From the NCBI GenBank assembly GCA_964392715.1, contig CAYMQI010000001.1, positions 1 through 60,721 of the forward strand: DNA of 60,721 nucleotides, read 5' to 3'. This document shows positions 12,229 to 54,879 of this stretch, one piece after another; position 1 is the stretch's first letter; each line of letters starts with the position of its first letter. The DNA is from an uncultured Pseudomonadales bacterium (GTDB lineage Bacteria > Patescibacteriota > Microgenomatia > UBA1400 > CAYNFZ01). The notes below the pieces were generated by a model. The model had not been told where the DNA came from. It was given only the letters and a program-made list of their open reading frames with translations, and searched no databases. Both the position numbers and the translations under genes were made by a program.

Positions 12229-13368
12229 CTATCCACTTATCCTATCATGATATTTATCAATAATACCCAACAATTCTCTCATTCTAATTTTGTAAACATG
12301 GTCTTTTTTAGTTCTATTCCTTCCCGCTTTTGCTATCGCCTGCCTCTCTTTCTCTTTGGCCAAATAATATCTAATTTTTTTTACACAATCATGTGCAGAT
12401 ATATAAATGACCATTTCCTTTCCATCTTCATAGCACTTACGATCGGTTTTTTCGTCGGTTAATAGCAAACTTCCCAAACCCGCCACTTCAAACAATCTCA
12501 TGGCGTGTGCCGCACCTTTGGCCATATCGACATGCGAGTGGATCACGATTCTGGCATTATATATCGCCTCAAGCATCTCCACCCCATCCAGTGGCCCCCT
12601 GTATTTTTCCTTGAGGTGGGGATACTCTTGCAGGTCGATACTCACCCTACCGTACAGCTCCAGCTCCGGCACTTTTTCTGCCACGTAGTTTAACAGTTCC
12701 AACCTCTGCTTGTGATCGGGGCTCAAACTCCCCACGAACAACACCAATATTTTTTTTCGCCATCTTTTCAAATCCATTGCCACATTGACCTCAAACCCCG
12801 GGTTTAGCAGCTCACAATTGACTCCCAATTCTCTGATCATCCGAACCAAAAAATCTGCTGTCGTTATCACCAGGTCATAGTGTTTCAATCTCTCCACCCC
12901 CAAAGATTTGGGGTTGGCTGAATGTAACACTAACATCAGCCCTTTATTTTTTTGCCTCAAAGCCTCAGCTTTTCCAAATACATTATAAAAAGTATAAATT
13001 ACATCAGGTTCAAAATTTTCGATCTGTTTCTGCACAATCAATCTAGCTAGCCACTCCGGCCATATTTGCTCGTCCCCACCTTGCACTCGCTTCAACATCA
13101 AATACACCCACACCCCAACGAAGATAGAGGGCCTCTTTTCTTTAAGCCAGGCCAATTGCACCTGCGGACAGTTATAAAAACAAGTTTCGGTTTCTTGTCC
13201 CAATTTCTCCAGGCCCTTACTGTAAAAGTCAGCCACACCCAACTTTTTACCCAACAAGGTTTTCATCTGCCACCGATACGAACGCTCAGCCAACTTGGGG
13301 GTTCTTTCGTATAGTTCCCGCCAATACTCACTATAGTATCCACTTACAAAGAAAAACTTATACTTCAC
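12229..13368 (-). CDS. CgeB-like protein with a Glyco_trans_1_2-type C-terminal domain
   Basis: C-terminus RLFEVAGLGSLLLTDEKTD ... YEDGKEMVIY ... YYLAKEKERQAIAKAGRNRTKKDHVY is typical of CgeB/DUF3880-type proteins. GTG start at 13368. Confidence 0.6.
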   Translation of the reverse strand: MKYKFFFVSGYYSEYWRELYERTPKLAERSYRWQMKTLLGKKLGVADFYSKGLEKLGQETETCFYNCPQVQLAWLKEKRPSIFVGVWVYLMLKRVQGGDEQIWPEWLARLIVQKQIENFEPDVIYTFYNVFGKAEALRQKNKGLMLVLHSANPKSLGVERLKHYDLVITTADFLVRMIRELGVNCELLNPGFEVNVAMDLKRWRKKILVLFVGSLSPDHKQRLELLNYVAEKVPELELYGRVSIDLQEYPHLKEKYRGPLDGVEMLEAIYNARIVIHSHVDMAKGAAHAMRLFEVAGLGSLLLTDEKTDRKCYEDGKEMVIYISAHDCVKKIRYYLAKEKERQAIAKAGRNRTKKDHVYKIRMRELLGIIDKYHDRISG

Positions 13369-26892: not shown

Positions 26893-28104
26893 GTGCCTCG
26901 CAAAAAACTTCCTCGCAAAACCATCGGCGTTGGTGAAGTGCAAATTCACGACCTGGAAAAAAAATACGTTAACGACGTCCTCAACAATAATCGCCTCTCC
27001 CACGGTTACTACTCCGACCGCTTTGAACGCGCCTTTGCCCGCGCCCACAAATGTAAATACGCCTTCTTTACTAACTCTGGTACCTCAGCCTTGCAGGTTG
27101 GCCTCCACGCCATGAAGATCAAGTATGGCTGGCAGGACGGCGCCCAAGTCCTGGTACCCGCCGTTACTTTCGTCGCCTCCGTCAACACCATTCTCCAAAA
27201 TAACCTTACCCCGGTTTTGGTCGACGTCGAAGCCGACCACTACAACATTGACCCCAGTCTGATCGAAGCCAAGATCACCGCCAGGACCGTCGCCATCATG
27301 CCCGTGCACCTGTGTGGCAACCCCTGTCACATGGACCCCATCATGCACCTTAAGAAAAAATACCAACTCAAAATGATCGAGGATTCCTGCGAAACCATGT
27401 TCGCCCGAGTCGGCCATCAACCCGTCGGCTCATTTGGCGAAGTCGGTTGTTTTTCCACTTACGCCGCCCACGTCCTGGTTACCGGCGTTGGCGGTTTCTC
27501 GACCACCAGCGACGACGAACTGGCCGTCCTCATGAAGAGCCTCTATAACCATGGCCGCGACGGCATTTACACCTATATCGACGACACCAAAAAGGCTAGC
27601 CTCAGACAGCTGTTTTCCATCGTCTCCCGTCGTTTCAACTTTATCCACCAAGGCTACAGTTACCGCGCCACCGAACTCGAGGCCGCCTTGGGCCTGGGCC
27701 AAATGCGCCGCTGGCGCCAGATCATCCGCCGTCGCAAACAAGTTGCCCGGCGGCTCACCAGTGGCCTCAGAAATTTGGCACACTACCTACAACTTCCCAC
27801 CATTAGAAAAAATCACGAACACATTTTTATGATGTATCCCCTCGTCGTCAAAAATGGCGTCGACCGCGACGACCTGATCCTCTACTTGGAAAAAAACGGC
27901 GTCGAAACTCGTCCCTTACTCCCGCTCACCAACCAGCCCATTTACGTACAAATATGGGGCGGTATCGAAGGCAAGTATCCGGTGGCCAAACATCTAAATC
28001 AACACGCCTTCTACGTTGGCTCCCATCCATACTTAACCGACCAAGACGTCGATTACATTATTCACACCTTCCAGGACTACTTCAAACAAGGTAAACTCTT
28101 TTAA
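26893..28104 (+). CDS. DegT-fold PLP/PMP enzyme with His in place of the catalytic Lys (ColD/E1-like sugar 3-dehydratase candidate)
   Basis: DegT-family layout: TNSGTSALQVGL, MPVHLCGNP, IEDSCE. The active-site block reads FSTYAAHVLVTGVGG, whereas the two neighbouring paralogues have SFHESKNFVAGEGG and SFYPGKNLGAYGDAG. GTG start, so the start position is uncertain. Confidence 0.7.
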   Translation: MPRKKLPRKTIGVGEVQIHDLEKKYVNDVLNNNRLSHGYYSDRFERAFARAHKCKYAFFTNSGTSALQVGLHAMKIKYGWQDGAQVLVPAVTFVASVNTILQNNLTPVLVDVEADHYNIDPSLIEAKITARTVAIMPVHLCGNPCHMDPIMHLKKKYQLKMIEDSCETMFARVGHQPVGSFGEVGCFSTYAAHVLVTGVGGFSTTSDDELAVLMKSLYNHGRDGIYTYIDDTKKASLRQLFSIVSRRFNFIHQGYSYRATELEAALGLGQMRRWRQIIRRRKQVARRLTSGLRNLAHYLQLPTIRKNHEHIFMMYPLVVKNGVDRDDLILYLEKNGVETRPLLPLTNQPIYVQIWGGIEGKYPVAKHLNQHAFYVGSHPYLTDQDVDYIIHTFQDYFKQGKLF

Positions 28105-28116
28105 CCATATAACCCT
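28103..28116 (+). repeat. Two-unit copy of the AACCATNN repeat
   Basis: aaccatat aaccct. The 12-mer aaccatataacc is identical to 45643-45654. Lies between the stop at 28104 and the ATG at 28128. Confidence 0.5.
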
Positions 28117-33039: not shown

Positions 33040-33063
33040 GACAATGAGGCAATGGGACAATGA
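33040..33063 (+). repeat. Three 8-nt units GRCAATGR
   Basis: gacaatga ggcaatgg gacaatga, overlapping a TTGACA hexamer at 33038-33043. Lies in the divergent region between uxs and the GT-C gene at 33093. Confidence 0.6.
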
Positions 33064-33092
33064 AACCAGCAATTTTGTTGTAAGATAAACCC

Positions 33093-34634
33093 ATGAAGAC
33101 TCTTCGAAACAGTTTCCTGATTACCCTTCTTGTGGCCGTTTTTCTTAAGGGAATTGTTTTTTCCATTATCGTCCCCCTGTGGGAATTCCCCGACGAACAG
33201 GCCCATTTTGGGCAGGTCCAAAACACGGTCGAGACCGGCCAGCTGTTCAAAAAAGGCAACAACTTATCCGAAGAAATTTATCTTTCCGAACTCGTCCTAG
33301 ACACGCTTCGCGACAATCGGGGGATCAATAAATTCACTTACCACCCCGACTTTAAGCATACTTTCAGCACCAGTCTAATCGGTCCTCAGGAAGAAGCCCT
33401 CGCCTCCCTCTCAGTCCTCTCCCGCACCAACTTTATCAAAACCGAAGCTACCAACTACCCGCCCCTTTTCTATCTCCTCTCCGCCGCCGGCTACATCCTC
33501 ACCTCCCCCACCAACCTGTTTGTCCGCGTCTTTGCGACCCGTATGGTATCTGTCTTGCTCTCCGGTGCCTTCGTCTGTCTTGGTTGGAAATTAGCCAACT
33601 TAGTCTTCCCCAAACAAAAAGCTCTCGCTCTGGCTCTAGCTCTATCCCTCGCCTTCCACCCCATGCTCTCGTTCGTTTCCGCCGGTATCAACAATGATAA
33701 TCTCCTAAACTTACTAGGCCTGTTTGTCGTTTATCTTGCCGCTTCTTGGATCACCAAGGGCCCCAGTGTCAAAATAAGCCTCTTACTGCTTCTTTCTTCC
33801 GTCCTTGGTCTGCTCACCAAACCCCTGATCATCCCCGTCCTTTTTGGCTTTGGCTTGGTTTATCTCCACGAGTGGTTTGTCACCCGCAGACACTTTAAAC
33901 GCCAACTTCGCCTTTCCTGGCCTCTTGTGGCCATAACTGCCTTAGCCATCGCCTACTTGCTCTTCACCTTTGCCGGGACCGGCCGCATCCGTTACTGGCC
34001 CAGCACCAACGCCGCCTCCACCACGACCCTATTCGACTATCTCCAGGCCCAACTACCCCGCTACTACCGCGAGACTCTGGTTTGGTACTGGGGGGTCTTT
34101 AAGTGGCTTGGAGTAATTTTGCCCCTCAATCTAGTGCGCATTATCAAAGTTATCATGGCTATATCGGCCTTTGGCCTCGTCAGGTTGTTTTTGACCAATA
34201 AGCCAATTGTTCCCAAGTCGCTGGTTGCCGCCTTTATCATTATTACCCTCTCTTACATTGCCCTGCTCACCCTCTGGGATTTTTCCCTGGTCCGTAGCCT
34301 CGGTTTCTCCCACGGCCTCCAGGGTCGCTACTTCTTCCCTGTCATTGGCGCGCACTTGGCGCTCTTGGTCACAGGCTTCTCTTCCGCTTTCCCCAAACGC
34401 TTTTTAATCCGCGCCGCCCAGTTCTTAGGCGTTTTCATGATTTTTTCACACTTGGTTTCTCTCTACACTCTAGCCCACTCTTATTACTCGCTTACCAACC
34501 TGAACATTTTTCTTATTCAGGTTAGCCAATACAAGCCTTTCTTTTTGAAATCCCCCCTTGCCCTTGTTATAATCCTCACTTATCTGCTAACCTTAGCCGT
34601 CCTTATCAAACAATCTCTCAAACCCAAGAACTAG
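33093..34634 (+). CDS. Polytopic membrane glycosyltransferase, GT-C-like (DUF2142-type)
   Basis: PLWEFPDEQAHFGQV motif after TM1 and more than 10 hydrophobic segments. Confidence 0.6.
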   Translation: MKTLRNSFLITLLVAVFLKGIVFSIIVPLWEFPDEQAHFGQVQNTVETGQLFKKGNNLSEEIYLSELVLDTLRDNRGINKFTYHPDFKHTFSTSLIGPQEEALASLSVLSRTNFIKTEATNYPPLFYLLSAAGYILTSPTNLFVRVFATRMVSVLLSGAFVCLGWKLANLVFPKQKALALALALSLAFHPMLSFVSAGINNDNLLNLLGLFVVYLAASWITKGPSVKISLLLLLSSVLGLLTKPLIIPVLFGFGLVYLHEWFVTRRHFKRQLRLSWPLVAITALAIAYLLFTFAGTGRIRYWPSTNAASTTTLFDYLQAQLPRYYRETLVWYWGVFKWLGVILPLNLVRIIKVIMAISAFGLVRLFLTNKPIVPKSLVAAFIIITLSYIALLTLWDFSLVRSLGFSHGLQGRYFFPVIGAHLALLVTGFSSAFPKRFLIRAAQFLGVFMIFSHLVSLYTLAHSYYSLTNLNIFLIQVSQYKPFFLKSPLALVIILTYLLTLAVLIKQSLKPKN

Positions 34635-34666: not shown

Positions 34667-34708
34667 GTCATTTCATTACTTCTTACTCATTACTTTCTAT
34701 TCCTTAAT
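34667..34708 (+). repeat. Six 7-nt periodic units (CATTACT family) abutting the start codon
   Basis: gtcattt cattact tcttact cattact ttctatt ccttaat, then the ATG at 34709. Confidence 0.7.
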
Positions 34709-44505: not shown

Positions 44506-45619
44506 CCTCATCAGCCTCGTTATCTTACTCTTGCTTATCTTCCGCCTGTTGGGCCTTGTCTCCAACTACCACCTTGCCCTGGGGAGTAGCTTCAATTTAC
44601 CAGAGGCCCAAACTATGTACGAACACTCCCAGTACAACTTGGGCCAGGCTGAGTTTTTCGGCAACATCAACGACGACATCCTCTACACTTACGCTGGCAT
44701 CCGCGCTGCTGCCGGTGCCGACCCAAGCCTGATCAATCCCGAAACCCCCTATTTGATCAAATATCTGTATGGCTTCTCGGTCTTGATTTTTGGCAACGCC
44801 GTTATCATTCAGGCTTTATTTTCACTTGGTTTGCTCGTCGTCACCGGTTATCTTGCCTACCTGTTTACCGGCAACCCCCTCCTCTCCTTACTATCAGCTA
44901 GCCTCTTGACTTTCGACAAGGTCTTTATCGATCAATCATTTGCTTCCTTTCTTGATCTTCCCCATGCTCTGTTTATTGTCTCGACTTTTATTGCCTTCAC
45001 CCTTTATTCCAGGCAGACCAATCCGCAACAAGCCAGACGCCTGCTTATCATCACCGGAGCTTTGGTTGGTGCGGTCGCCGCTACCAAGTTTTTCGCCACC
45101 GCCCTAGTTCTTTATTTAGTGTTCCTTCTTTTCCTTCAAAAGACTCTCAGCAATTTGCTCCGCTTAACCACTCCTGCCCTGCTTGTTTACTTGGCAAGTT
45201 TTCTCGCCTTTTTCTACCACCATCCCAATCCCCTCGATTTTCTAACCCTCCACTTTAACCTTCTCAAGCTCTACAAATCCTATCTGCCCGCTTACCCTCA
45301 AGGCGAGTTTTTGCGCATCATTTTCTTGGGTGAGTGGCGTACCTGGTGGGGCAGTGACCCGATCATTAAAGTCAGCGCCTGGACCCTGATCTGGCCGGTC
45401 ACCACCGCCACTTCTCTGCTTGCCCCCTTATTATTGGCAAATAAGCAAAGAACACAAATTTTACCCATGTTCACATTTATTACTCTTTATCTTTTCACGA
45501 ACTTATTTCACGTCATCTTCCCCAGGTATCTCCTTAGTATCCTTCCGCTGTTAATTGTTGTTACAATATTCATCCTGTCTCAAATTACAGGAAAGATCAA
45601 CAAATTATTGACCAAATAA
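44477..45619 (+). CDS. Polytopic membrane glycosyltransferase, GT-C-like (PMT_2-type)
   Basis: I preferred the internal ATG at 44477 (MNRFTKPQTSLISLVILLLL); the track start at 44165 runs through the preceding GT4 gene. Loop motif: NDDILYTYAGI ... NPETPYLIKYLYGFSVLIFGN. Confidence 0.6.
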   Translation: MNRFTKPQTSLISLVILLLLIFRLLGLVSNYHLALGSSFNLPEAQTMYEHSQYNLGQAEFFGNINDDILYTYAGIRAAAGADPSLINPETPYLIKYLYGFSVLIFGNAVIIQALFSLGLLVVTGYLAYLFTGNPLLSLLSASLLTFDKVFIDQSFASFLDLPHALFIVSTFIAFTLYSRQTNPQQARRLLIITGALVGAVAATKFFATALVLYLVFLLFLQKTLSNLLRLTTPALLVYLASFLAFFYHHPNPLDFLTLHFNLLKLYKSYLPAYPQGEFLRIIFLGEWRTWWGSDPIIKVSAWTLIWPVTTATSLLAPLLLANKQRTQILPMFTFITLYLFTNLFHVIFPRYLLSILPLLIVVTIFILSQITGKINKLLTK

Positions 45620-45642
45620 CTTCCGGCTATCTAGCCACCAAA

Positions 45643-45698
45643 AACCATATAACCATTGAACCGTCAAACCATTCAGTCATCTAACCATTATTCATCAT
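45643..45698 (+). repeat. Direct tandem array, 8-nt period, unit AACCATNN (6 to 7 units)
   Basis: Hexamers start at 45643 (aaccat), 45651 (aaccat), 45659 (aaccgt), 45667 (aaccat), 45675 (agtcat), 45683 (aaccat) and 45691 (ttcatc). Lies between the stop at 45619 and the ATG at 45708. Confidence 0.8.
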
Positions 45699-45707
45699 TC
45701 TATTCCT

Positions 45708-46808
45708 ATGTTCATCGCCATCGACGGCAACGAAGCCAACGCCCCTCAAAGAGTCGGCAGCAATGTCTACGCCCACCGGCTCTTACAAGGCATCAACCAC
45801 TTCGACCCTCACACCCACTACCAAATTTATCTCAAATCGAAACCCGCCTCCGACATGCCTCCGGCCTCACCCCACTGGCGCTATCGTATTTTTGGCCCGC
45901 GTCCGGCTTGGACCCGGTGGCGCCTGCCCTTAGACCTTTATCTAACTCACCCTCGTCCCCACCTCTTTTTTACCCCTGGCCACTACGCTCCAGCCTTCTC
46001 TCCCGTGCCCACAGTCATCTCCATCATGGACTTGGCCTTTCTCTACTTCCCCGAGACATTCACACCGAGGGCTCTAGCCCAACTCAAATCCTGGACCAAA
46101 AGTTCGGCCCTGTCTGCGACCCATATCTTCACCATTTCCCACCATTCCAAAGGAGATATCATCAAACACTACGGCATTGATCCAGCCAAGATCACCGTCA
46201 CCTACCCCGGTAGTGGCCTTGAGGATTCTCCCCGCCCAAATGAGGACACAATCCATAACGTCCTTGCCGCACATTCCTTGCCAGAGAAATACTTTCTTTT
46301 TATCGGCACCAATCAACCCCGCAAAAATCTCCCCCGTCTCCTTGACGCCTACAGCGTCTTCTCCAAAAAACACCCGGACATCAAACTGGTTCTCGTTGGC
46401 AAGACTTGGCATCAATTCAGCCGCACCAACCTCACCCTGTTGCCAGGTGTTACACAGCTTGATTACCTGGATCAACCAGAACTTCTAGCAGTCCTATCGG
46501 GCGCTCAAGCCTTAATTTTCCCCTCACTCTATGAAGGCTTTGGCCTTCCCGTCCTCGAAGCCATGCAGCTTGGCGTCCCAGTTGCCGCCGCCCTCACCAG
46601 CTCCATCCCAGAGATCACCGCTGACTCGCCCCTGTTATTTGACCCCACCAGTGCTCAGGCAATGGTCAGCGCTTTAGCCAAAGCCGCCTCGCTCACCGGC
46701 GAAGCCAAGCAAAAGCTCATCAAACAAGGTAAAATCAAAGCCAAAGCTTTTACTTGGGAAAAATGTACCAAGCAAACCTTGGAGGTTCTCCATGAGCTCA
46801 CCCTTTAA
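45708..46808 (+). CDS. Glycosyltransferase family 4 (GT-B)
   Basis: Motifs: MFIAIDGNEANAPQRVGSNVY, LIFPSLYEGFGLPVLEAMQLGVPV. Confidence 0.85.
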   Translation: MFIAIDGNEANAPQRVGSNVYAHRLLQGINHFDPHTHYQIYLKSKPASDMPPASPHWRYRIFGPRPAWTRWRLPLDLYLTHPRPHLFFTPGHYAPAFSPVPTVISIMDLAFLYFPETFTPRALAQLKSWTKSSALSATHIFTISHHSKGDIIKHYGIDPAKITVTYPGSGLEDSPRPNEDTIHNVLAAHSLPEKYFLFIGTNQPRKNLPRLLDAYSVFSKKHPDIKLVLVGKTWHQFSRTNLTLLPGVTQLDYLDQPELLAVLSGAQALIFPSLYEGFGLPVLEAMQLGVPVAAALTSSIPEITADSPLLFDPTSAQAMVSALAKAASLTGEAKQKLIKQGKIKAKAFTWEKCTKQTLEVLHELTL

Positions 46809-47400
46809 AGACAAACACGGCCAAGCCCTTTCTTGGGGTCAGGCCCACCACAAAATCACCAACCGCTCCTATAACTACTGGCTCGATTTGAAGCTCGCTA
46901 AAATGTGGTACTGCTTTGGCCGCATTCCTTTCCATTTCCTTCGCAATCACCTCTTCCGCCTTTGCGGCGTTAAGATCGGTCGTCACTCCACCATCCATAT
47001 TGGCGCCCGTTTTTACCAACCCAAAAACATCACCATTGGTAACGGCACCATCATTGGCGATCACGCCACTCTCGATGGTCGCGGCCCTCTGACCATCGGC
47101 GATCACGTCGATATCGCCTCTCAAGTCATGATTTTTAATTCCAAACACGACCTAAACGACCCAGAATTTAAGCCGGTTGAAGCCCCCGTCGTCATCAAAG
47201 ACTATGTCTTTATCGGCCCCCGCGCCATTATCATGCCCTCCGTCACCATCGGCACTGGAGCCGTGGTGGCGGCCGCCGCCGTGGTCACCCGTGACGTGCC
47301 CGACTATGCCATCGTCGCCGGCATCCCGGCCCGCCAGATAGGGGAGCGCCAGGCTAAAGATCTCCACTACCGGCTGGGCAGGTTCAGATTGTTCCAATAA
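46792..47400 (+). CDS. Hexapeptide-repeat (left-handed beta-helix) acetyltransferase
   Basis: Motifs: GVKIGRHSTIHIGARF, ITIGNGTIIGDHATLDG, VVIKDYVFIGPRAIIMPSVTIGTGAVVAAAAVV. Confidence 0.8.
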   Translation: MSSPFKDKHGQALSWGQAHHKITNRSYNYWLDLKLAKMWYCFGRIPFHFLRNHLFRLCGVKIGRHSTIHIGARFYQPKNITIGNGTIIGDHATLDGRGPLTIGDHVDIASQVMIFNSKHDLNDPEFKPVEAPVVIKDYVFIGPRAIIMPSVTIGTGAVVAAAAVVTRDVPDYAIVAGIPARQIGERQAKDLHYRLGRFRLFQ

Positions 47401-47411
47401 TAAATAAATTA

Positions 47412-47475
47412 ATGGTTATATGGCTTTATGGTCAGGGGTAGTTCAGACCATCAAACCATCTGACCATCAAACCAT
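47412..47475. repeat. Inverted pair of 8-nt periodic arrays: 3 x ATGGYY, a 12-nt spacer, then 4 x RACCAT
   Basis: Left arm: atggtt 47412, atggct 47420, atggtc 47428. Right arm: gaccat 47446, aaccat 47454, gaccat 47462, aaccat 47470. Lies between the stop at 47400 and the ATG at 47488. Confidence 0.85.
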
Positions 47476-47487
47476 TATTCTTCATGC

Positions 47488-48375
47488 ATGAAACTTTCCA
47501 TCATTATCGTCAGCTACAATACCAAAGCCCTCCTCCATCATTGTCTTGACTCCCTCAAGCCGCAGCTAAATAGCCAAACCGAAGTCATCATCATTGACAA
47601 TGCCTCCACCGACGGCTCGGTCCAAGCTATCCAAAAAGCTTTCCCCAAAGTCAAGCTCATTGCTAACAAGATAAATCTTGGCTTTGCCGCGGCCAACAAT
47701 TTGGGCATTAAAAAAACATCTGCGACTTACGTTCTCCTCTTAAACCCCGATACTTTGGTCCAACCTGGCAGCCTCAAACTCCTCACCGATTATCTCGACG
47801 CACAGCCCCAGGTGTCCATCGCCTCACCCAAGCTTTTAAACCCGGATGGCAGTCTCCAACCCGCCGGCGGCGCCCTCCCCAACCTAAACAACTTAACCAC
47901 CTGGTTTTTTCTCTTGGATCACTTGCCCTACGTCGGTGAATTTATCGACCCCTACCACCAAAATCACCAGGATTTTTACACCAAGACTCAGTTAACCGGT
48001 TGGGTACCCGGTACTGCCATGATCATCAGACGAAAGGTTCTCGACCAAATCGGCCTCTTGGACGATCAGATTTTTATGTACGCCGAAGACGTCGATCTTT
48101 GCCTTCGCGCCCACCAAACCGATCATCAAGTTGCCTTGCTCCCGCAAGCGACAGTCATTCATGCCTCCCACGCTGCCGCCGGCAAACCCAAAGCTTTAAT
48201 CGGCGAGGTCGACGGTCTAAAGTATCTCTTTGCCAAATACAAACCTGCCTGGCAACAACTACTTTTGCGCCTGGTCTTTAAAAAAGGCGCCCTCATCCGC
48301 ATGCTCCTCTTTGCTACAATAGCAAGGGACAAAACTCGCTATGACACCTACCAAAAAATATTTAACCTGGCTTGA
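47488..48375 (+). CDS. Glycosyltransferase family 2 (rhamnosyltransferase-like subgroup)
   Basis: Motifs: MKLSIIIVSYNTKALL, IIIDNASTDGS, NLGFAAANNLG, LLLNPDT, FMYAEDVDLCLR. Confidence 0.85.
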   Translation: MKLSIIIVSYNTKALLHHCLDSLKPQLNSQTEVIIIDNASTDGSVQAIQKAFPKVKLIANKINLGFAAANNLGIKKTSATYVLLLNPDTLVQPGSLKLLTDYLDAQPQVSIASPKLLNPDGSLQPAGGALPNLNNLTTWFFLLDHLPYVGEFIDPYHQNHQDFYTKTQLTGWVPGTAMIIRRKVLDQIGLLDDQIFMYAEDVDLCLRAHQTDHQVALLPQATVIHASHAAAGKPKALIGEVDGLKYLFAKYKPAWQQLLLRLVFKKGALIRMLLFATIARDKTRYDTYQKIFNLA

Positions 48376-51393: not shown

Positions 51394-51397
51394 CTAT

Positions 51398-51431
51398 TAG
51401 TTTTTAGTTTTTCGCTTTGCGTTTTTAGTCT
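51398..51431 (+). repeat. 7-nt periodic units (TAGTTTT family) abutting the start codon
   Basis: tagtttt tagtttt tcgcttt gcgtttt tagtct, then the ATG at 51432. Confidence 0.65.
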
Positions 51432-52721
51432 ATGAAGATCTTGATGCTTACCCCTTATCTGCCCTACCCCATCCTCTCCGGCGGCCAAATCCGTACCTAC
51501 AACCTTTTAAAGAATCTAAGCCATCACCACCAAATCACCTTGTTTGCCCTGATCAAAGACGATCAAGAAAAGCACTACATACGGAAACTAAAACCCTTCT
51601 GCCAAAGTGTCCAGGTCTTCAAGCGCACCAAAAACCCTTGGGCCCCAAGAAACATTCTTCTGGCCGGCTTTACCCGCTACCCCTTCCTCGTCACTCGCAA
51701 CCTGCCTCGGGCCATGAAATCGGCCATCAAAACCGAGCTCAAAAACGGCTACGACCTAATCCACGCCGAAACTTTCTACATGATGCCCAATATCCCCAGG
51801 ACCAGCGTCCCCGTCCTCTTAGTCGAGCAGACCATCGAGTACTTAGGTTACCAGTTCTATGCCAAAGCCAGTCCACACTGGTTCTTAAAACCTCTCCTTT
51901 ACGCCGACATCTTCAAAATCAAGTACTGGGAAAAACACTTCTGGGCCAAAGCTACCCATTTAGTCACCATGTCAGAAGAAGACAAAAAGTTTATTGCCAA
52001 AGAAATTGATCAGAGCAAAATTGACGTCGTCGCCAACGGCGTCGATATTGAAAAATTCTCAGCCGTCAACAAAAATCTCCCACCAGAACCGACCATTCTT
52101 TTTGTCGGCACTTTTAAGTGGCTGCCCAATATCGACGCCGTCGAATTTTTGGTCCGGGAGGTTTGGCCCGGCGTCAAAGCTACCATCCCGACAGCCAAGC
52201 TCTGGATCGTCGGCCACAGCCCCACCGCCACCGTTCGCGATTTCGGCCACCTGCCAGACATTACCGTCAGTAGCAACATCAAAGATATCACAGATGCCTA
52301 CAAAGCCGCCCACATGCTCTTGGCACCCATCAGAAGCGGCAAAGGCACCCGTTACAAAATTCTCGAAGCCATGGCCACCAACACCCCGGTGGTTACTACC
52401 AAACTTGGCGCCGAAGGCCTCCGGGTCACTCCCGGGCAACACTTACTCATCGGCAACACTGCCAAGGAATTAACCGATTTGACCGTCAAACTCCTCTCAG
52501 ACCGCCAGCTTCAAAGTCAGCTTGCCCAACATGCTCGCATCAACGTCGCCAAATACTACAACTGGAAAACCATCTCCGAAGATTTGGATAAGCTCTATAG
52601 GCAGATAGGTAAACCAGAAGAAATAAATAATCAAGCACCCCCTCGACTTCGCTCGGGGCAGGCAAGCATCAAATCACAAACAAGCTCCAAGCATCAACCT
52701 TCAATCACCCAAACATCTTAA
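51432..52721 (+). CDS. Glycosyltransferase family 4 (GT-B) with a Q/S/T/P-rich C-terminal tail
   Basis: Motifs: MKILMLTPYLPYPILSGGQIRTYN, LLAPIRSGKGTRYKILEAMATNTPVVTT. The last roughly 40 aa are low complexity (NNQAPPRLRSGQASIKSQTSSKHQPSITQTS). Confidence 0.8.
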   Translation: MKILMLTPYLPYPILSGGQIRTYNLLKNLSHHHQITLFALIKDDQEKHYIRKLKPFCQSVQVFKRTKNPWAPRNILLAGFTRYPFLVTRNLPRAMKSAIKTELKNGYDLIHAETFYMMPNIPRTSVPVLLVEQTIEYLGYQFYAKASPHWFLKPLLYADIFKIKYWEKHFWAKATHLVTMSEEDKKFIAKEIDQSKIDVVANGVDIEKFSAVNKNLPPEPTILFVGTFKWLPNIDAVEFLVREVWPGVKATIPTAKLWIVGHSPTATVRDFGHLPDITVSSNIKDITDAYKAAHMLLAPIRSGKGTRYKILEAMATNTPVVTTKLGAEGLRVTPGQHLLIGNTAKELTDLTVKLLSDRQLQSQLAQHARINVAKYYNWKTISEDLDKLYRQIGKPEEINNQAPPRLRSGQASIKSQTSSKHQPSITQTS

Positions 52722-53614: not shown

Positions 53615-53620
53615 TATTTA

Positions 53621-53725
53621 AACCAAAATCAAACATCAAATCTCAAAAATCAAAATTACCAATCAAAATGAAAAAGTTTTGAATTTTAATTGCATTTTGC
53701 TATTTGATTTTTAATTTTTGCCTTA
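53621..53725. repeat. AT-rich region with roughly 7-nt periodic ATCAAA units followed by inverted TTTGA(T/A) units
   Basis: atcaaa at 53628, 53635, 53649 and 53662, and ctcaaa at 53642. Downstream come ttttgaatttt and tatttgattttt. Lies in the 131-nt gap between the stop at 53614 and the ATG at 53746. Confidence 0.55.
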
Positions 53726-53745
53726 AGCACGTTTTTAAATAAAAT

Positions 53746-54879
53746 ATGAAAATCGGTATCGACGCTCGTCTCTACGGCCTCCGGCACGCCGGCATCGGCC
53801 GTTACACCCAAAACCTAATCGGAGAGTTGGCAAAAATCGACCGCCAGAATCACTACCTCCTTTTTGTCACCGATCCCAAGGTGATCGATCCTTTACCCGA
53901 CAATTTTCAGCTTGTTGGCGCCAATATCCGCCACTACACCTGGGCCGAGCAAACCCAATTTTTGCGCCTCCTCAATTCTTACCGCTTTGACTTCTTGCAC
54001 GCCACCCACTTTAACGTCCCCTTTTTCTACCGCCGGCCCTTTATCGTCACCATCCACGACCTCCTCTGGCACCACAAAATCGGTTTAAGCGTCACCACTT
54101 TAAATCCCGCCGTTTATCTCATCAAATACTTAGGCTATCGCGCCACCGTCAGAAATGCCGTCTCCCGCGCCGTCAACATCATCACCCCAACCAGGACCAT
54201 CGCCTCTTCAGTCCAACGACACTTCCGCCTCCAAAGCACTAAGCTCGCCGTCACCTACGAGGCCGCCGCCCCCGTCTTTAGTCACAAACCTCGCCCTTCG
54301 GCAGTGACCCAAAGCCTCAAGCAGTTCAAGCTTACCCCCCCTTTTATCATCTACACCGGTAGCCTCTATCCCCACAAAAACGTCACCACTTTGATCAACA
54401 GCCTCCGCTTTTTGCCGCCGACCCTATCCCTGGCTATCGTCTCCTCCCGCGATGTCTTCACCCAAAAAACCGAGGCGTTCGTCACCTCAATTGGCCTCTC
54501 CTCTAGGGTCAAGTTCCTCGGCTATCAACCCGATGACGTCTTGGTTGGCCTCTATCAAGCCGCTTCAGCCTTGGTCTTGCCTTCCCTCTCCGAAGGCTTT
54601 GGCCTGACCGGACTTGAGGCCATGGCCGCCCGCCTGCCCGTGGTCTGCTCAAAGCACTCGGTTCTTTCAGAAATCTATGGTTCTGCCCCTTTGTATACCG
54701 ACACCGCCAAGCCCCAAGTCCTGGCCGCCACCATCAACCGTTTTTTGACCGACAAAGACCTGTCATTCAGGCACCGCCAGCTGGGCCTGATCCAAGCCCA
54801 AAAATACTCTTGGAGTAAAATGGCCGAAGCAACCCTGGACATTTACCAACAAACCTACCGCCAACTCACCCGCAAATAA
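53746..54879 (+). CDS. Glycosyltransferase family 4 (GT-B)
   Basis: Motifs: MKIGIDARLYGLRHAGIGRYTQN, LVLPSLSEGFGLTGLEAMAARLPVV. Confidence 0.85.
   Translation: MKIGIDARLYGLRHAGIGRYTQNLIGELAKIDRQNHYLLFVTDPKVIDPLPDNFQLVGANIRHYTWAEQTQFLRLLNSYRFDFLHATHFNVPFFYRRPFIVTIHDLLWHHKIGLSVTTLNPAVYLIKYLGYRATVRNAVSRAVNIITPTRTIASSVQRHFRLQSTKLAVTYEAAAPVFSHKPRPSAVTQSLKQFKLTPPFIIYTGSLYPHKNVTTLINSLRFLPPTLSLAIVSSRDVFTQKTEAFVTSIGLSSRVKFLGYQPDDVLVGLYQAASALVLPSLSEGFGLTGLEAMAARLPVVCSKHSVLSEIYGSAPLYTDTAKPQVLAATINRFLTDKDLSFRHRQLGLIQAQKYSWSKMAEATLDIYQQTYRQLTRK

What the first reader, a model, noticed from the sequence alone, without database searches (positions are those of the whole stretch)
47412..47475. Dyad-symmetric pair of 8-nt periodic hexamer arrays (ATGGYY x3 / RACCAT x4) between two glycan genes
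The 87-nt gap between the acetyltransferase stop and the GT2 start is almost entirely a structured repeat.
- Left arm: atggtt, atggct and atggtc at 47412, 47420 and 47428.
- A 12-nt G-rich spacer follows.
- Right arm: gaccat, aaccat, gaccat and aaccat at 47446, 47454, 47462 and 47470.
- The period is exactly 8 nt on both arms, and the arms are reverse complements at the hexamer level.
- As a hairpin it would be only 4 to 6 bp blocks separated by 2x2 internal loops, so it is a poor intrinsic terminator.
- The layout looks more like an array of binding sites for a dimeric or oligomerising DNA- or RNA-binding protein.
- The same architecture recurs at 59892-59958, and in direct form at 45643-45698 and 28103-28116.
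Basis: seen in the sequence. Interest (0 to 1): 0.7.

Follow-up and report, generated by a model that had tools for sequence, protein, structure and literature searches.

The report
Octamer repeat hairpin between two genes
The spacer between two sugar-chain genes of an uncultured groundwater bacterium is filled by a fast-changing 8-base repeat (RRCCAT plus 2 variable bases) and its inverted copy, one of several such repeat leaders that sit just before start codons in this genome: a new example of a known, poorly understood kind of bacterial repeat, not a new kind of element.

Summary

It is not specific to this gene pair. The genome is a Microgenomates/CPR bacterium from Rifle groundwater. It carries at least six RRCCATNN arrays in about 70 kb. 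Each has the G-poor RRCCAT strand on the sense strand and ends 4-21 nt before a start codon. Genes here mostly lack Shine-Dalgarno sites.

Two arrays, 47412-47475 and 59892-59958, also have an inverted 5' arm. That predicts an interrupted hairpin spanning the whole intercistronic spacer.

The arrays change quickly:
- Co-occurring strains differ by whole units, 3 vs 4 at this locus and 2 vs 8 at another.
- Variant density is 14-16 times that of the flanks.
- The array is absent from the same gene junction in relatives at 60-70% protein identity, which carry other 7-8-nt repeat families before their start codons.

Best reading: slippage-generated long-unit simple sequence repeats that form the untranslated leader, here with a hairpin. 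This resembles the TAACTGA heptamers of Beggiatoaceae and the inverted GGGAATC pairs of Xanthomonas. A binding-site array for a protein is neither supported nor excluded.

The parts
47412..47433 (+). Left (5') arm: ATGGTT-at-ATGGCT-tt-ATGGTC, three units in this strain. Other strains have a fourth unit (ATGGTTGA) inserted at 47411/47412.
   Evidence: Sequence read. Alleles: 3 units in the window, L202, L517 and L519; 4 units in L001, L203, L516, L518, L520 and L521.
47434..47445 (+). 12-nt spacer (aggggtagttca) that forms the hairpin tip. T47439 is C in allele C.
47446..47475 (+). Right (3') arm: GACCATCA AACCATCT GACCATCA AACCAT. G-poor, on the sense strand of the downstream gene, and effectively a duplicated 16-mer.
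   Evidence: TRF: period 8, 4.1 copies
47476..47487 (+). G-poor tail TATTCTTCATGC running up to the GT2 start codon, with no Shine-Dalgarno. Nearly the same tail (TATTCATCAT) follows array 45643-45688.
46792..47400 (+). Upstream gene, a hexapeptide-repeat acetyltransferase. Its stop codon is 11 nt before the left arm.
   Evidence: Pfam Hexapep 3.1e-15
47488..48375 (+). Downstream gene, a family 2 glycosyltransferase
   Evidence: Pfam Glycos_transf_2 2.5e-25
45643..45688 (+). Direct array, same family: AACCATAT AACCATTG AACCGTCA AACCATTC AGTCATCT AACCAT. It ends 19 nt before the ATG of a GT4 gene (45708) and has no inverted arm. A small hairpin GGCTA-tc-TAGCC precedes it.
   Evidence: The allele in L518 differs by 5 substitutions within 18 nt.
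59892..59958 (+). Second inverted pair: TTGGTT ATGGTC ATGGTC CTGGTT, loop atgctaa, then AACCAT AACCAT AACCAC AGCCAT, followed by TTTT and the RecO ATG at 59963. It starts 4 nt after the stop of the DUF4012 gene.
   Evidence: MFE -22 kcal/mol, z -3.8; identical in 7 contigs
28103..28116 (+). Two-unit remnant AACCATAT AACCCT, 11 nt before the ATG of a GT2 gene (28128)

Best explanation
The feature is one locus of a species-specific family of short, degenerate octamer tandem repeats, with unit RRCCAT plus two nearly free bases.

Where the arrays sit. The organism is a Microgenomates (candidate phyla radiation) bacterium with a very compact genome and little use of Shine-Dalgarno sites. The arrays fill some of its few long intergenic spacers. 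The G-poor, AUG-free RRCCAT strand is always the sense strand and runs to within 4-21 nt of the next start codon, so the array is the untranslated leader of the downstream gene.

The hairpin version. At this locus and at 59892-59958 an inverted copy of the array lies 5' of it. The intercistronic transcript can then fold into a 24-30-bp hairpin made of 4-6-bp blocks separated by small internal loops. The repeat arms begin 4-11 nt after the upstream stop codon and end 4-12 nt before the downstream AUG.

How they arise and change. Arrays arise and change size by slipped-strand events between units, and they turn over fast in evolution.

Likely effect (inferred, not shown). The single-stranded RRCCAU leader supports Shine-Dalgarno-independent initiation. 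The inverted arm partly sequesters it, which ties downstream translation to hairpin opening by ribosomes finishing the upstream gene and/or protects the upstream 3' end. Unit number sets how much leader is free.

Shown: anatomy, genomic distribution, orientation, polymorphism, lack of conservation, predicted folding. Inferred: transcription across the spacer, any effect on translation or RNA stability, and slippage as the mutational mechanism.
For: A family, not a single site.
- There are six arrays in about 70 kb of the same genome.
- Four are in the window: 28103, 45643, 47412 and 59892.
- Two are in the 10 kb upstream of it: AACCATATAACCATTTCCTT-ATG before a UDP-glucose dehydrogenase gene, and an array at the dehydrogenase/epimerase junction.
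- All are intergenic or at a gene end, all have RRCCAT on the sense strand, and all end 4-21 nt before an ATG.
- A profile of 34 units gives 1.2-2.0 bits at positions 1-6 and 0.3 bits at positions 7-8.

Leader context.
- Only 2-3 of 21 called starts have a GGAG-like site.
- Upstream regions are G-poor.

Unit-sized polymorphism.
- At this locus, 3 left units occur in the window and 3 other contigs, and 4 left units in 6 contigs.
- At the epimerase array the counts are 2 vs 8 units, a 48-nt difference bounded by the 13-nt direct repeat CCATCCGGCCATC.

Variation hot spot.
- 10 of 40 differences (L518) and 5 of 17 (L521) fall in the 175 nt of the two array spacers, out of about 7 kb compared. That is 14-16 times the flank density.

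Not conserved.
- The DUF4012-RecO junction holds an unrelated 90-nt spacer in a relative with 70% protein identity.
- It holds 9-10 nt in relatives with 60-61% identity.
- Those relatives carry other 7-8-nt arrays just before start codons: TTAAACC, GACAATNN, TCAATCA, CATTCAT, TTTCCAA.

Folding.
- The spacer alone folds at -21.3 kcal/mol (3 units) and -29.5 (4 units), z -2.9 and -4.8.
- With the first 42 nt of the downstream gene included, the values are -22.9 and -33.5.
- The extra unit lowers the mean unpaired probability at -25..-13 from the AUG from 0.48 to 0.14.

Same habit elsewhere.
- In 818 kb of GTDB loci that contain such arrays, TRF finds many period-7 arrays (29) and period-8 arrays (33 without ACCAT), but few at period 6, 9 or 10 (4, 4, 1).
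- A 613-kb control set has 2 and 1.

Published precedents.
- PMC4679880 describes start-proximal TAACTGA heptamers without Shine-Dalgarno sites, absent from close relatives with the same gene order.
- PMC4692102 describes intergenic GGGAATC heptamers, including 70-75 convergent inverted pairs per genome, with lengths that vary between species.
Against: - No expression data are available, so transcription through the spacers, hairpin formation and any effect on translation are untested.
- Only about 70 kb of the genome could be examined, all of it glycan genes, so genome-wide positional rules are extrapolated from six arrays.
- The units are imperfect, which should make slippage slow. The conserved hexamer with free 2-nt spacers looks more like a selected sequence motif than like decaying copies. 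The units were picked by that motif, however, so this is partly ascertainment.
- In other phyla, ACCAT octamer arrays show no uniform orientation relative to genes: 40 antisense, 21 sense and 20 between convergent or divergent genes. The leader role cannot be general.
- The strain substitutions in the hairpin are all structure-neutral (G-C to G-U, internal loop, hairpin tip), but three changes are too few to demonstrate selection on pairing.
Confidence: 0.5

Rival explanations
1. Post-transcriptional regulon. A sequence-specific RNA-binding protein recognises RRCCAU motifs spaced 8 nt apart in the leaders and controls translation of the downstream genes. The inverted arm would compete with the protein for the motif.
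For: - The hexamer core is conserved while the 2-nt spacers are free.
- All arrays are on the sense strand close to the start codon.
- In one strain the degenerate unit AGTCAT reads as the consensus AACCAT.
- The same idea was proposed for TAACTGA repeats, with S1, Csp or CsrA as candidates (PMC4679880).
Against: - No candidate protein was found.
- The downstream genes share no function: GT4, GT2, RecO, UDP-glucose dehydrogenase, epimerase.
- The arrays are absent from orthologous junctions in relatives, which use other units. The protein would have to co-evolve with the unit in each species.
- Unit number differs among co-occurring strains.
Confidence: 0.15
2. Operator or centromere-like array on double-stranded DNA, bound cooperatively by a small oligomerising protein. 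Known examples are the ribbon-helix-helix proteins MetJ (8-bp met boxes), omega (7-bp heptads in direct and inverted order) and ParG (ACTC boxes every 8 bp). These examples are from my own knowledge.
For: - The units are contiguous 8-bp repeats in direct and inverted orientation with a conserved core.
- The order of the arms is consistent: the ATGG arm is 5' of the CCAT arm in the window (2), in GTDB loci (6 by a strict test) and in one phage contig, against one reverse case.
Against: - No regulator, ribbon-helix-helix gene or partition gene turned up in the Pfam scans of the ORFs across the window.
- Arm-to-arm spacing differs between the two inverted pairs (18 vs 13 nt) and is almost nil in L245.
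- The array is not conserved in relatives.
- Unit number is polymorphic.
- No sigma-70-like promoter overlaps the arrays.
Confidence: 0.08
3. Intercistronic terminator, attenuator or processing hairpin. The inverted pair exists for its RNA structure: partial termination, an RNase III-type processing site, or a 3' stabiliser for the upstream message, as with REP hairpins or the phage T7 intergenic RNase III sites (from my own knowledge). The repeat texture is only how the stem was built.
For: - The hairpins are significantly more stable than shuffles.
- They begin 4-11 nt after a stop codon.
- The 59892 hairpin is followed by UUUUU and the 47412 hairpin by a U-rich tail.
- The strain substitutions keep pairing (C to T giving G-U) or fall in loops.
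- A phage contig has the same kind of dyad directly after a stop codon.
Against: - Four of the six arrays in this genome have no inverted arm, so structure cannot be the family's common denominator.
- The stems are AU-rich and interrupted every 4-6 bp.
- The consensus terminator scan does not call them.
- Relatives manage the DUF4012-RecO junction with a 9-10-nt gap.
Confidence: 0.15
4. Contingency (phase or rheostat) locus. Unit gain and loss is the function, switching or grading expression of individual glycan genes so that the population displays varied surface glycans.
For: - Two of six arrays differ by whole units among strains from the same aquifer.
- The 4-unit allele is predicted to bury more of the leader.
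- At the epimerase array the expansion also changes the C-terminus of the upstream enzyme, 412 vs 407 aa.
Against: - The units are imperfect and few, so switching rates would be low compared with classical contingency repeats.
- Arrays also precede RecO and nucleotide-sugar genes.
- Array 59892 is invariant in 7 contigs.
- Nearly every gene in the region is a glycan gene, so the association with glycan genes is uninformative.
- The differences track strain haplotypes (3 alleles) rather than showing within-population flicker. No read-level data were available.
Confidence: 0.1
5. Miniature mobile element of the REP/BIME or MITE type, inserted into intergenic spacers.
For: - Imperfect palindromes are confined to intergenic DNA.
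- They are present or absent at an otherwise syntenic junction.
- A 3' flank CCATYATTMWTCAT is shared between three arrays.
Against: - No terminal inverted repeats distinct from the repeat itself and no target-site duplication.
- Copies differ in unit number, unit order and presence of the second arm, rather than being copies of one element.
- No transposase or RAYT gene in the window.
- The indels are unit-sized and bounded by direct repeats, as expected for slippage.
Confidence: 0.04

Closest known systems
TAACTGA heptamer direct repeats of marine Beggiatoaceae, some cyanobacteria and Bacteroidetes (MacGregor 2015, PMC4679880)
   Same: - 2-6 tandem copies, mostly intergenic.
- Oriented towards the downstream start codon and ending a few nt before it.
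- G-poor, replacing a Shine-Dalgarno site.
- No common function among downstream genes.
- Close relatives with the same gene order have shorter spacers without the repeat.
   Different: - The unit here is 8 nt, with a conserved hexamer and a free dinucleotide, rather than a fixed heptamer of different sequence.
- The host is a CPR bacterium.
- Two loci here carry an inverted arm; only one inverted repeat was reported in that genome.
GGGAATC heptamer repeats of Xanthomonas, including convergent inverted pairs (Rehm et al. 2015, PMC4692102)
   Same: - 89-93% of arrays are intergenic.
- 70-75 cases per genome of two arrays in convergent orientation close together, able to form stem-loops.
- Array length varies between related genomes.
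- Arrays are mostly transcribed.
   Different: - Those units are G-rich and form G-quadruplexes or i-motifs; RRCCATNN cannot.
- Those arrays sit closer to the upstream ORF (about 28 nt) than to the downstream one (about 160 nt), and most are kept between Xanthomonas species.
- Here they abut the downstream start and are not kept.
STRR heptamers of heterocystous cyanobacteria and the long-unit simple sequence repeats (5-11 bp) of Mrazek et al. 2007 (both cited in PMC4692102; details from my own knowledge)
   Same: Tandem iterations of a 5-11-nt unit, many loci per genome, non-coding, with genome-specific units. Polymerase slippage is the proposed origin.
   Different: Those are usually near-perfect and often long arrays in large genomes. 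Here the arrays are short (2-8 units) and degenerate, in a very small, compact genome.
REP/BIME palindromes of enterobacteria (from my own knowledge)
   Same: Imperfect intercistronic palindromes that are transcribed within operons and can stabilise upstream mRNA.
   Different: REPs are copies of one about 35-nt sequence mobilised by a RAYT transposase. They are not built from a periodic short unit, and no RAYT is seen here.
Operator or centromere arrays of ribbon-helix-helix proteins: MetJ met boxes, omega heptads, ParG parH (from my own knowledge)
   Same: Contiguous 7-8-bp units in direct and inverted orientation with a conserved core.
   Different: Those arrays lie at promoters or partition sites next to the gene for the binding protein, and they are conserved with it. 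None of this is seen here.

Membership tests
Long-unit simple sequence repeats (5-11 nt; STRR/LSSR type) | Head-to-tail iteration of a 5-11-nt unit | tested here: met
   Period exactly 8, with 3-4 + 4 units here. TRF reports period 8, 4.1 copies, 80% matches. The units are degenerate rather than near-perfect.
Long-unit simple sequence repeats (5-11 nt; STRR/LSSR type) | Several loci per genome with the same unit, biased to non-coding DNA | tested here: met
   Six loci in about 70 kb, all intergenic or at a gene end. Intergenic DNA is about 2.4% of the window. The whole genome was not available.
Long-unit simple sequence repeats (5-11 nt; STRR/LSSR type) | Unit-number polymorphism between strains | tested here: met
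   3 vs 4 units at 47412, each allele seen in at least 3 independent assemblies. 2 vs 8 units at the epimerase array, where the 8-unit allele was seen in one scaffold only.
Start-codon-proximal heptamer repeats (TAACTGA type, PMC4679880) | Forward orientation towards, and ending a few nt before, a start codon that lacks a Shine-Dalgarno site | tested here: met
   6 of 6 arrays are on the sense strand and end 4-21 nt before the ATG. No GGAG-like site lies before these genes.
Start-codon-proximal heptamer repeats (TAACTGA type, PMC4679880) | Unit is the heptamer TAACTGA | tested here: not met
   The unit is the octamer RRCCATNN. The resemblance is in layout, not in sequence family.
Inverted pairs of intergenic repeat arrays (Xanthomonas GGGAATC type, PMC4692102) | Two arrays of the same unit in convergent orientation close together | tested here: met
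   47412-47433 / 47446-47475 and 59892-59921 / 59929-59958
Inverted pairs of intergenic repeat arrays (Xanthomonas GGGAATC type, PMC4692102) | G-rich unit able to form a G-quadruplex | tested here: not met
   No G runs of 3 or more in the units. The only GGGG is in the 12-nt loop.
Intrinsic (Rho-independent) terminator | Uninterrupted G+C-rich stem followed directly by a U tract | tested here: inconclusive
   The consensus scan calls no terminator at any array. The stems are AU-rich and interrupted. The 59892 hairpin is nevertheless followed by UUUUU. Terminator rules for CPR bacteria are unknown.
REP/BIME or MITE | Many near-identical copies, a cognate transposase (RAYT or IS), terminal repeats or target duplications | tested here: not met
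   The copies differ in unit number, unit order and arms. There is no transposase in the window and there are no flanking duplications. Genome-wide copy count was not testable.
Ribbon-helix-helix operator or centromere arrays | Cognate small DNA-binding gene nearby; array at a promoter; conserved with the regulon | tested here: not met
   No such gene in 60.7 kb. No promoter-like site at the arrays. The array is absent in relatives. Binding itself is not testable here.
Any described RNA family (Rfam 15) | Match to a covariance model | tested here: not met
   No hit at gathering score in the window. Only a chance-level snoRNA hit (E 0.099) in 45500-47600 at the permissive threshold.
Classical phase-variable contingency repeat | Near-perfect repeat tract whose length toggles a promoter spacing or reading frame | tested here: inconclusive
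   Length polymorphism exists but the units are imperfect. The effect on expression is only a folding prediction.

The most novel reading that the evidence does not exclude
In these Shine-Dalgarno-poor CPR bacteria, species-specific 7-8-nt repeat leaders could be a real translation-control layer. A factor, or the ribosome itself, would read the periodic RRCCAU motif. Gain and loss of units, or of the inverted arm, would then give heritable, gene-by-gene tuning of a 60-kb surface-glycan programme among co-occurring strains.
Probability: 0.1. Interest if true: 0.7.

Novelty: new member of a known kind. Interest (0 to 1): 0.33.

Why it matters
On its own this is a modest result: another bacterial lineage with short non-coding tandem repeats of unknown function.

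It has some value for three reasons.
- It extends the start-codon-proximal repeat-leader phenomenon, described so far for heptamers in Beggiatoaceae, cyanobacteria and Bacteroidetes, to octamers in a tiny, compact CPR genome where almost every intergenic base is accounted for.
- Related species each carry their own unit at equivalent positions. That makes the clade a natural comparative system for asking how translation starts without Shine-Dalgarno sites.
- The unit-sized alleles among strains from one aquifer offer a concrete, testable link between repeat length, leader accessibility and expression.

It also warns annotators. The repeat provides in-frame ATGs, which led one gene caller to extend RecO by 21 residues.

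Tried and rejected
Orthologous comparison of this exact spacer.
- A metagenome scan with the GT2 protein returned only the same strain plus homologues of at most 44% identity. No between-species alignment and no covariation test of the hairpin was possible.

A cross-phylum 'AACCAT octamer' family.
My own estimate of the chance expectation is about 1. Most hits were Bacteroidota.
- Those genomes also hold many period-7 and period-8 arrays with unrelated units.
- In viral contigs, ACCAT arrays are at least as common at period 7 (119 or more) and period 9 (118 or more) as at period 8 (55).
- I therefore rejected ACCAT-period-8 as a special conserved element. It is generic repeat behaviour.

Uniform orientation relative to genes in those other phyla. 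Not found.

Known RNA families. None found.

Promoter or terminator consensus at the arrays. None found.

A regulator, ribbon-helix-helix protein, transposase or RAYT in the window. None found: the ORFs scanned are almost all glycan genes, plus RecO and two ORFs with no Pfam match.

A contig from the same metagenome flagged as viral (L245) with the same dyad. It has 54% G+C and is a different organism.

A T-box-like 14-mer before glyS in relatives. Rfam did not confirm it. No RNA family was found after RecO in this organism either.

Literature searches for octamer or octanucleotide intergenic repeats in bacteria. Nothing specific was found.
Full report
**1. The observation**

The sequence at 47412-47475 is exactly as described.
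- Three ATGGYY hexamers start at 47412, 47420 and 47428.
- A 12-nt spacer follows.
- Four RACCAT hexamers start at 47446, 47454, 47462 and 47470.

The feature fills the 87-nt gap between a hexapeptide acetyltransferase (46792-47400) and a GT2 glycosyltransferase (47488-48375).

RACCATNNRACCAT occurs six times in the window against 0.03 expected from shuffles. TRF reports period 8 with 4.1 copies. All six matches are intergenic. By a crude ORF map, intergenic DNA is only about 2.4% of this very compact window. In 616 kb of unrelated metagenome loci the looser ACCATNNNACCAT occurs once.

- 59892-59958 is a 4+4 inverted pair.
- 45643-45688 is six direct units.
- 28103-28116 is only a two-unit remnant.

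The 59892 array is intergenic. RecO really starts at 59963, because the RecO_N profile aligns from residue 1 of that start. Most gene calls in sister contigs also use 59963.

**2. Source and context**

Exact-protein look-ups place the window on ANAN16-1_SAMN03202996 scaffold_418 of the Rifle aquifer groundwater metagenomes (PRJNA268031). The window is the last 60.7 kb of that 67.9-kb scaffold.

The nearest named homologues of its DUF4012 protein come from Patescibacteria, Microgenomates and Candidatus Chisholmbacteria, at 52-59% identity.

Of the ORFs scanned against Pfam across the window, all but RecO and two with no match look like glycan-biosynthesis or export genes. 'Between two glycan genes' therefore says nothing specific. 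No regulator, transposase or small DNA-binding gene is present.

Only 2-3 of 21 called start codons have a GGAG-like site upstream. The upstream regions are G-poor.

**3. A family of arrays in this genome**

The 10 kb upstream of the window holds two more arrays.
- AACCATAT AACCATTT CCTT-ATG lies before a UDP-glucose dehydrogenase gene.
- A second array lies at the dehydrogenase/epimerase junction.

That makes six arrays in about 70 kb. All have RRCCAT on the sense strand of the downstream gene and end 4-21 nt before its ATG.

A profile of 34 units shows 1.2-2.0 bits at positions 1-6 and about 0.3 bits at positions 7-8. The units were chosen by the motif, so part of this contrast is ascertainment.

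Only two of the six arrays have the inverted 5' arm. Two others are preceded by a small unrelated G+C hairpin.

**4. Dynamics**

Array 47412 has three alleles.
- Allele A has 3 left units. It occurs in the window, L202, L517 and L519.
- Allele B has 4 left units. It occurs in L203.
- Allele C has 4 left units plus three substitutions. It occurs in L001, L516, L518, L520 and L521.

The three substitutions of allele C are these:
- T>C at the hairpin tip.
- gaCcat>gaTcat, which turns a G-C pair into G-U on the + strand.
- Ca>Ta in an internal loop.

The epimerase array has 2 units on the window's own scaffold and in L218. It has 8 units in L219. The 48-nt difference is bounded by a 13-nt direct repeat and shortens the upstream protein from 412 to 407 aa. 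The 8-unit allele rests on one scaffold only.

Array 45643 has an allele in L518 with five substitutions within 18 nt. Two of them turn AGTCAT into the consensus AACCAT.

Variant density in the two array spacers is 14-16 times that of the flanking 7 kb. Array 59892 is identical in seven contigs. Other long spacers show only single substitutions.

**5. No conservation at the same junction**

The DUF4012-RecO gene order is kept in relatives. The spacer is not.
- At 70% protein identity it is an unrelated 90-nt sequence.
- At 60-61% identity it is 9-10 nt.

None of 14-18 kb from each of three relatives contains an RRCCAY period-8 pair. They carry other G-poor 7-8-nt arrays, several ending 3-15 nt before start codons.
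- L211: TTAAACC and GACAATNN
- L214: CTTAAAC, TCAATCA and GAGCTTA
- L216: TTTCCAA, CATTCAT and AAATCAA

The habit is shared across the clade. The unit is species-specific.

**6. Structure**

| RNA folded | MFE (kcal/mol) | z-score |
|---|---|---|
| 47401-47487, window allele | -21.3 | -2.9 |
| same spacer, 4-unit allele | -29.5 | -4.8 |
| 59888-59962 | -22.0 | -3.8 |
| direct array 45620-45707 | essentially unstructured | - |

With the upstream stop codon and the first 42 nt of the downstream gene included, the fourth left unit extends the stem towards the AUG. The energy goes from -22.9 to -33.5 kcal/mol. The mean unpaired probability at -25..-13 falls from 0.48 to 0.14.

The deviant hexamers of the 59892 pair are not compensated across the stem; I checked this by hand. 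With three substitutions and no orthologues, selection on pairing cannot be shown. No Rfam family matches. No promoter or terminator consensus is called at the arrays.

**7. Wider picture**

Most were Bacteroidota. Ignavibacteria, Calditrichota, Longimicrobium, Phycisphaerales, Verrucomicrobiota, Vibrionaceae and others also appeared. My own estimate of the chance expectation is about one hit.

About 87% of these arrays are intergenic, with mixed orientation relative to the flanking genes.

The same loci hold 33 period-8 arrays with unrelated units and 29 period-7 arrays. They hold only 4, 4 and 1 at periods 6, 9 and 10. A 613-kb control set has 1 and 2.

In viral contigs, ACCAT arrays are at least as frequent at periods 7 and 9 as at period 8.

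So there is no special cross-phylum AACCAT-octamer element. Some genomes simply accumulate 7-8-nt intergenic repeats, each with its own units.

One regularity is unexplained. Inverted pairs are nearly always ordered 5'-(ATGGxx)n...(xxCCAT)n-3'. That order occurs twice in the window, six times in GTDB loci by a strict test, and once in a phage contig. The reverse order occurs once. A possible reason is that, whichever strand is transcribed, this order places the G-poor, AUG-free arm next to the following start codon.

**8. Comparison with the literature**

MacGregor 2015 (PMC4679880) described TAACTGA heptamers.
- There are 169 sets of 2-6 copies in one Beggiatoaceae genome.
- Most are intergenic and oriented towards a start codon; the largest single class ends 1 nt upstream of it.
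- A Shine-Dalgarno site is mostly lacking.
- The downstream genes share no function.
- In Bacteroidetes, the repeats are absent from close relatives with the same gene order.
- She proposed binding by S1, Csp or CsrA-like proteins.

Rehm et al. 2015 (PMC4692102) described intergenic GGGAATC heptamers in Xanthomonas.
- 70-75 convergent inverted pairs per genome can form stem-loops.
- Array lengths vary between species.
- They cite the hypothesis that about 7-nt units favour polymerase slippage.

The present case combines both layouts with an octamer unit in a CPR genome. I found no report of such octamer arrays in CPR bacteria. The searched library does not cover most subscription journals.

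**9. Conclusion**

The best-supported reading is a species-specific, rapidly evolving family of degenerate octamer simple sequence repeats. They make up the Shine-Dalgarno-less leaders of some genes. The finding is the inverted-pair version, which can fold into an interrupted intercistronic hairpin.

The mutational mechanism (slippage between units) and the functional consequence are inferred, not shown. The consequence would be leader accessibility or coupling, possibly RNA stabilisation.

This is a new member of a known but poorly understood kind, of moderate-to-low interest on present evidence.

Noticed in passing
window 53615-53745: A second kind of dyad repeat fills the 131-nt spacer before the GT4 gene at 53746. 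About 8.5 AAATCA-like hexamers are followed by an inverted TGATTT-like arm. Here the C-containing arm comes first. Unlike the AACCAT arrays, this spacer appears homologous in a relative at 61% identity (L216 5762-5888) but not in L211. RNA fold z-score is only -1.6.
   Followed up: partly
window 57210-57228 and 33073-33092: Two nearly identical 19-20-nt upstream regions, TTTGTTCTAAGATACACCC-ATG and TTTTGTTGTAAGATAAACCC-ATG. They look like a -10-type box (TAAGAT) about 7 nt before the start codon, which could mean leaderless or very short-leader transcripts. L211 has TTTGTTATACT in its DUF4012-RecO spacer.
   Followed up: no
window 33040-33063: GACAATGA GGCAATGG GACAATGA, period 8, in the probable divergent spacer before the gene at 33093. 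The Pfam match of the opposite-strand epimerase begins at residue 34 of its ORF. The same GACAAT unit is the main array unit of the 70%-identity relative (L211 10756-10778, and inverted at 12551-12572).
   Followed up: partly
window 51397-51429 and 34673-34694; L219 5620-5680: Further G-poor period-7 arrays directly before start codons: TTAGTTT x4.7 before 51432 and TCATTAC x3 before 34709. A TCATTACTT / CTTACTCATTA motif recurs in a spacer 10 kb upstream of the window.
   Followed up: no
window 59900-59962: The left arm of the repeat supplies an in-frame ATG (59900) with no stop before RecO. One gene caller annotated a 204-aa RecO with a 21-residue extension encoded by the repeat. Other calls and the Pfam alignment support the 183-aa protein starting at 59963.
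   Followed up: yes
window 1-60721 plus 10 kb upstream (L218-L220): About 70 kb of almost uninterrupted glycan genes: many GT4 and GT2 transferases, several PMT_2/ArnT-like membrane transferases, two asparagine-synthase homologues, three DegT aminotransferases, Wzy-like and Wzx-like proteins, and an ABC-2 exporter. That is a large share of what is probably a genome of about 1 Mb (typical size for this group, from my own knowledge).
   Followed up: partly
called start codons between window 37138 and 59963: Only 2-3 of 21 called genes have a GGAG-like Shine-Dalgarno site. The bases just before start codons are typically C/A-rich, e.g. CACCC, CCAC, CCTACC.
   Followed up: partly
GTDB loci L002-L121: Genomes from many phyla, mainly Bacteroidota, hold long, often perfect period-8 and period-7 intergenic arrays with genome-specific units of up to 35 units. 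Periods 6, 9 and 10 are rare in the same loci. Adjacent arrays often switch unit while keeping the period.
   Followed up: partly
L245 10280-10335 (IMG/VR contig from the same metagenome, 3300025030): A 54% G+C phage-like contig carries the same dyad layout, GAATGGTT..TATGGCT / AACCATTT x4. It lies directly after a stop codon and before a G+C hairpin with a T run. It comes from a different organism than the window.
   Followed up: partly
L211 7834-8139 and L216 12491-12770: The long leaders before the glycyl-tRNA synthetase gene of two relatives contain AGGGTGGAACCGCG, which resembles the T-box consensus (from my own knowledge). Each is followed by a period-7 array up to the start codon. Rfam did not call a T-box at gathering score in L211.
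   Followed up: partly
L518 6092-7406 versus window 51432-52721: In one strain (SAMN03202998 scaffold_5960) the 429-aa GT4 gene is called as two ORFs of 205 and 190 aa. This may be a disrupted or rearranged allele.
   Followed up: no
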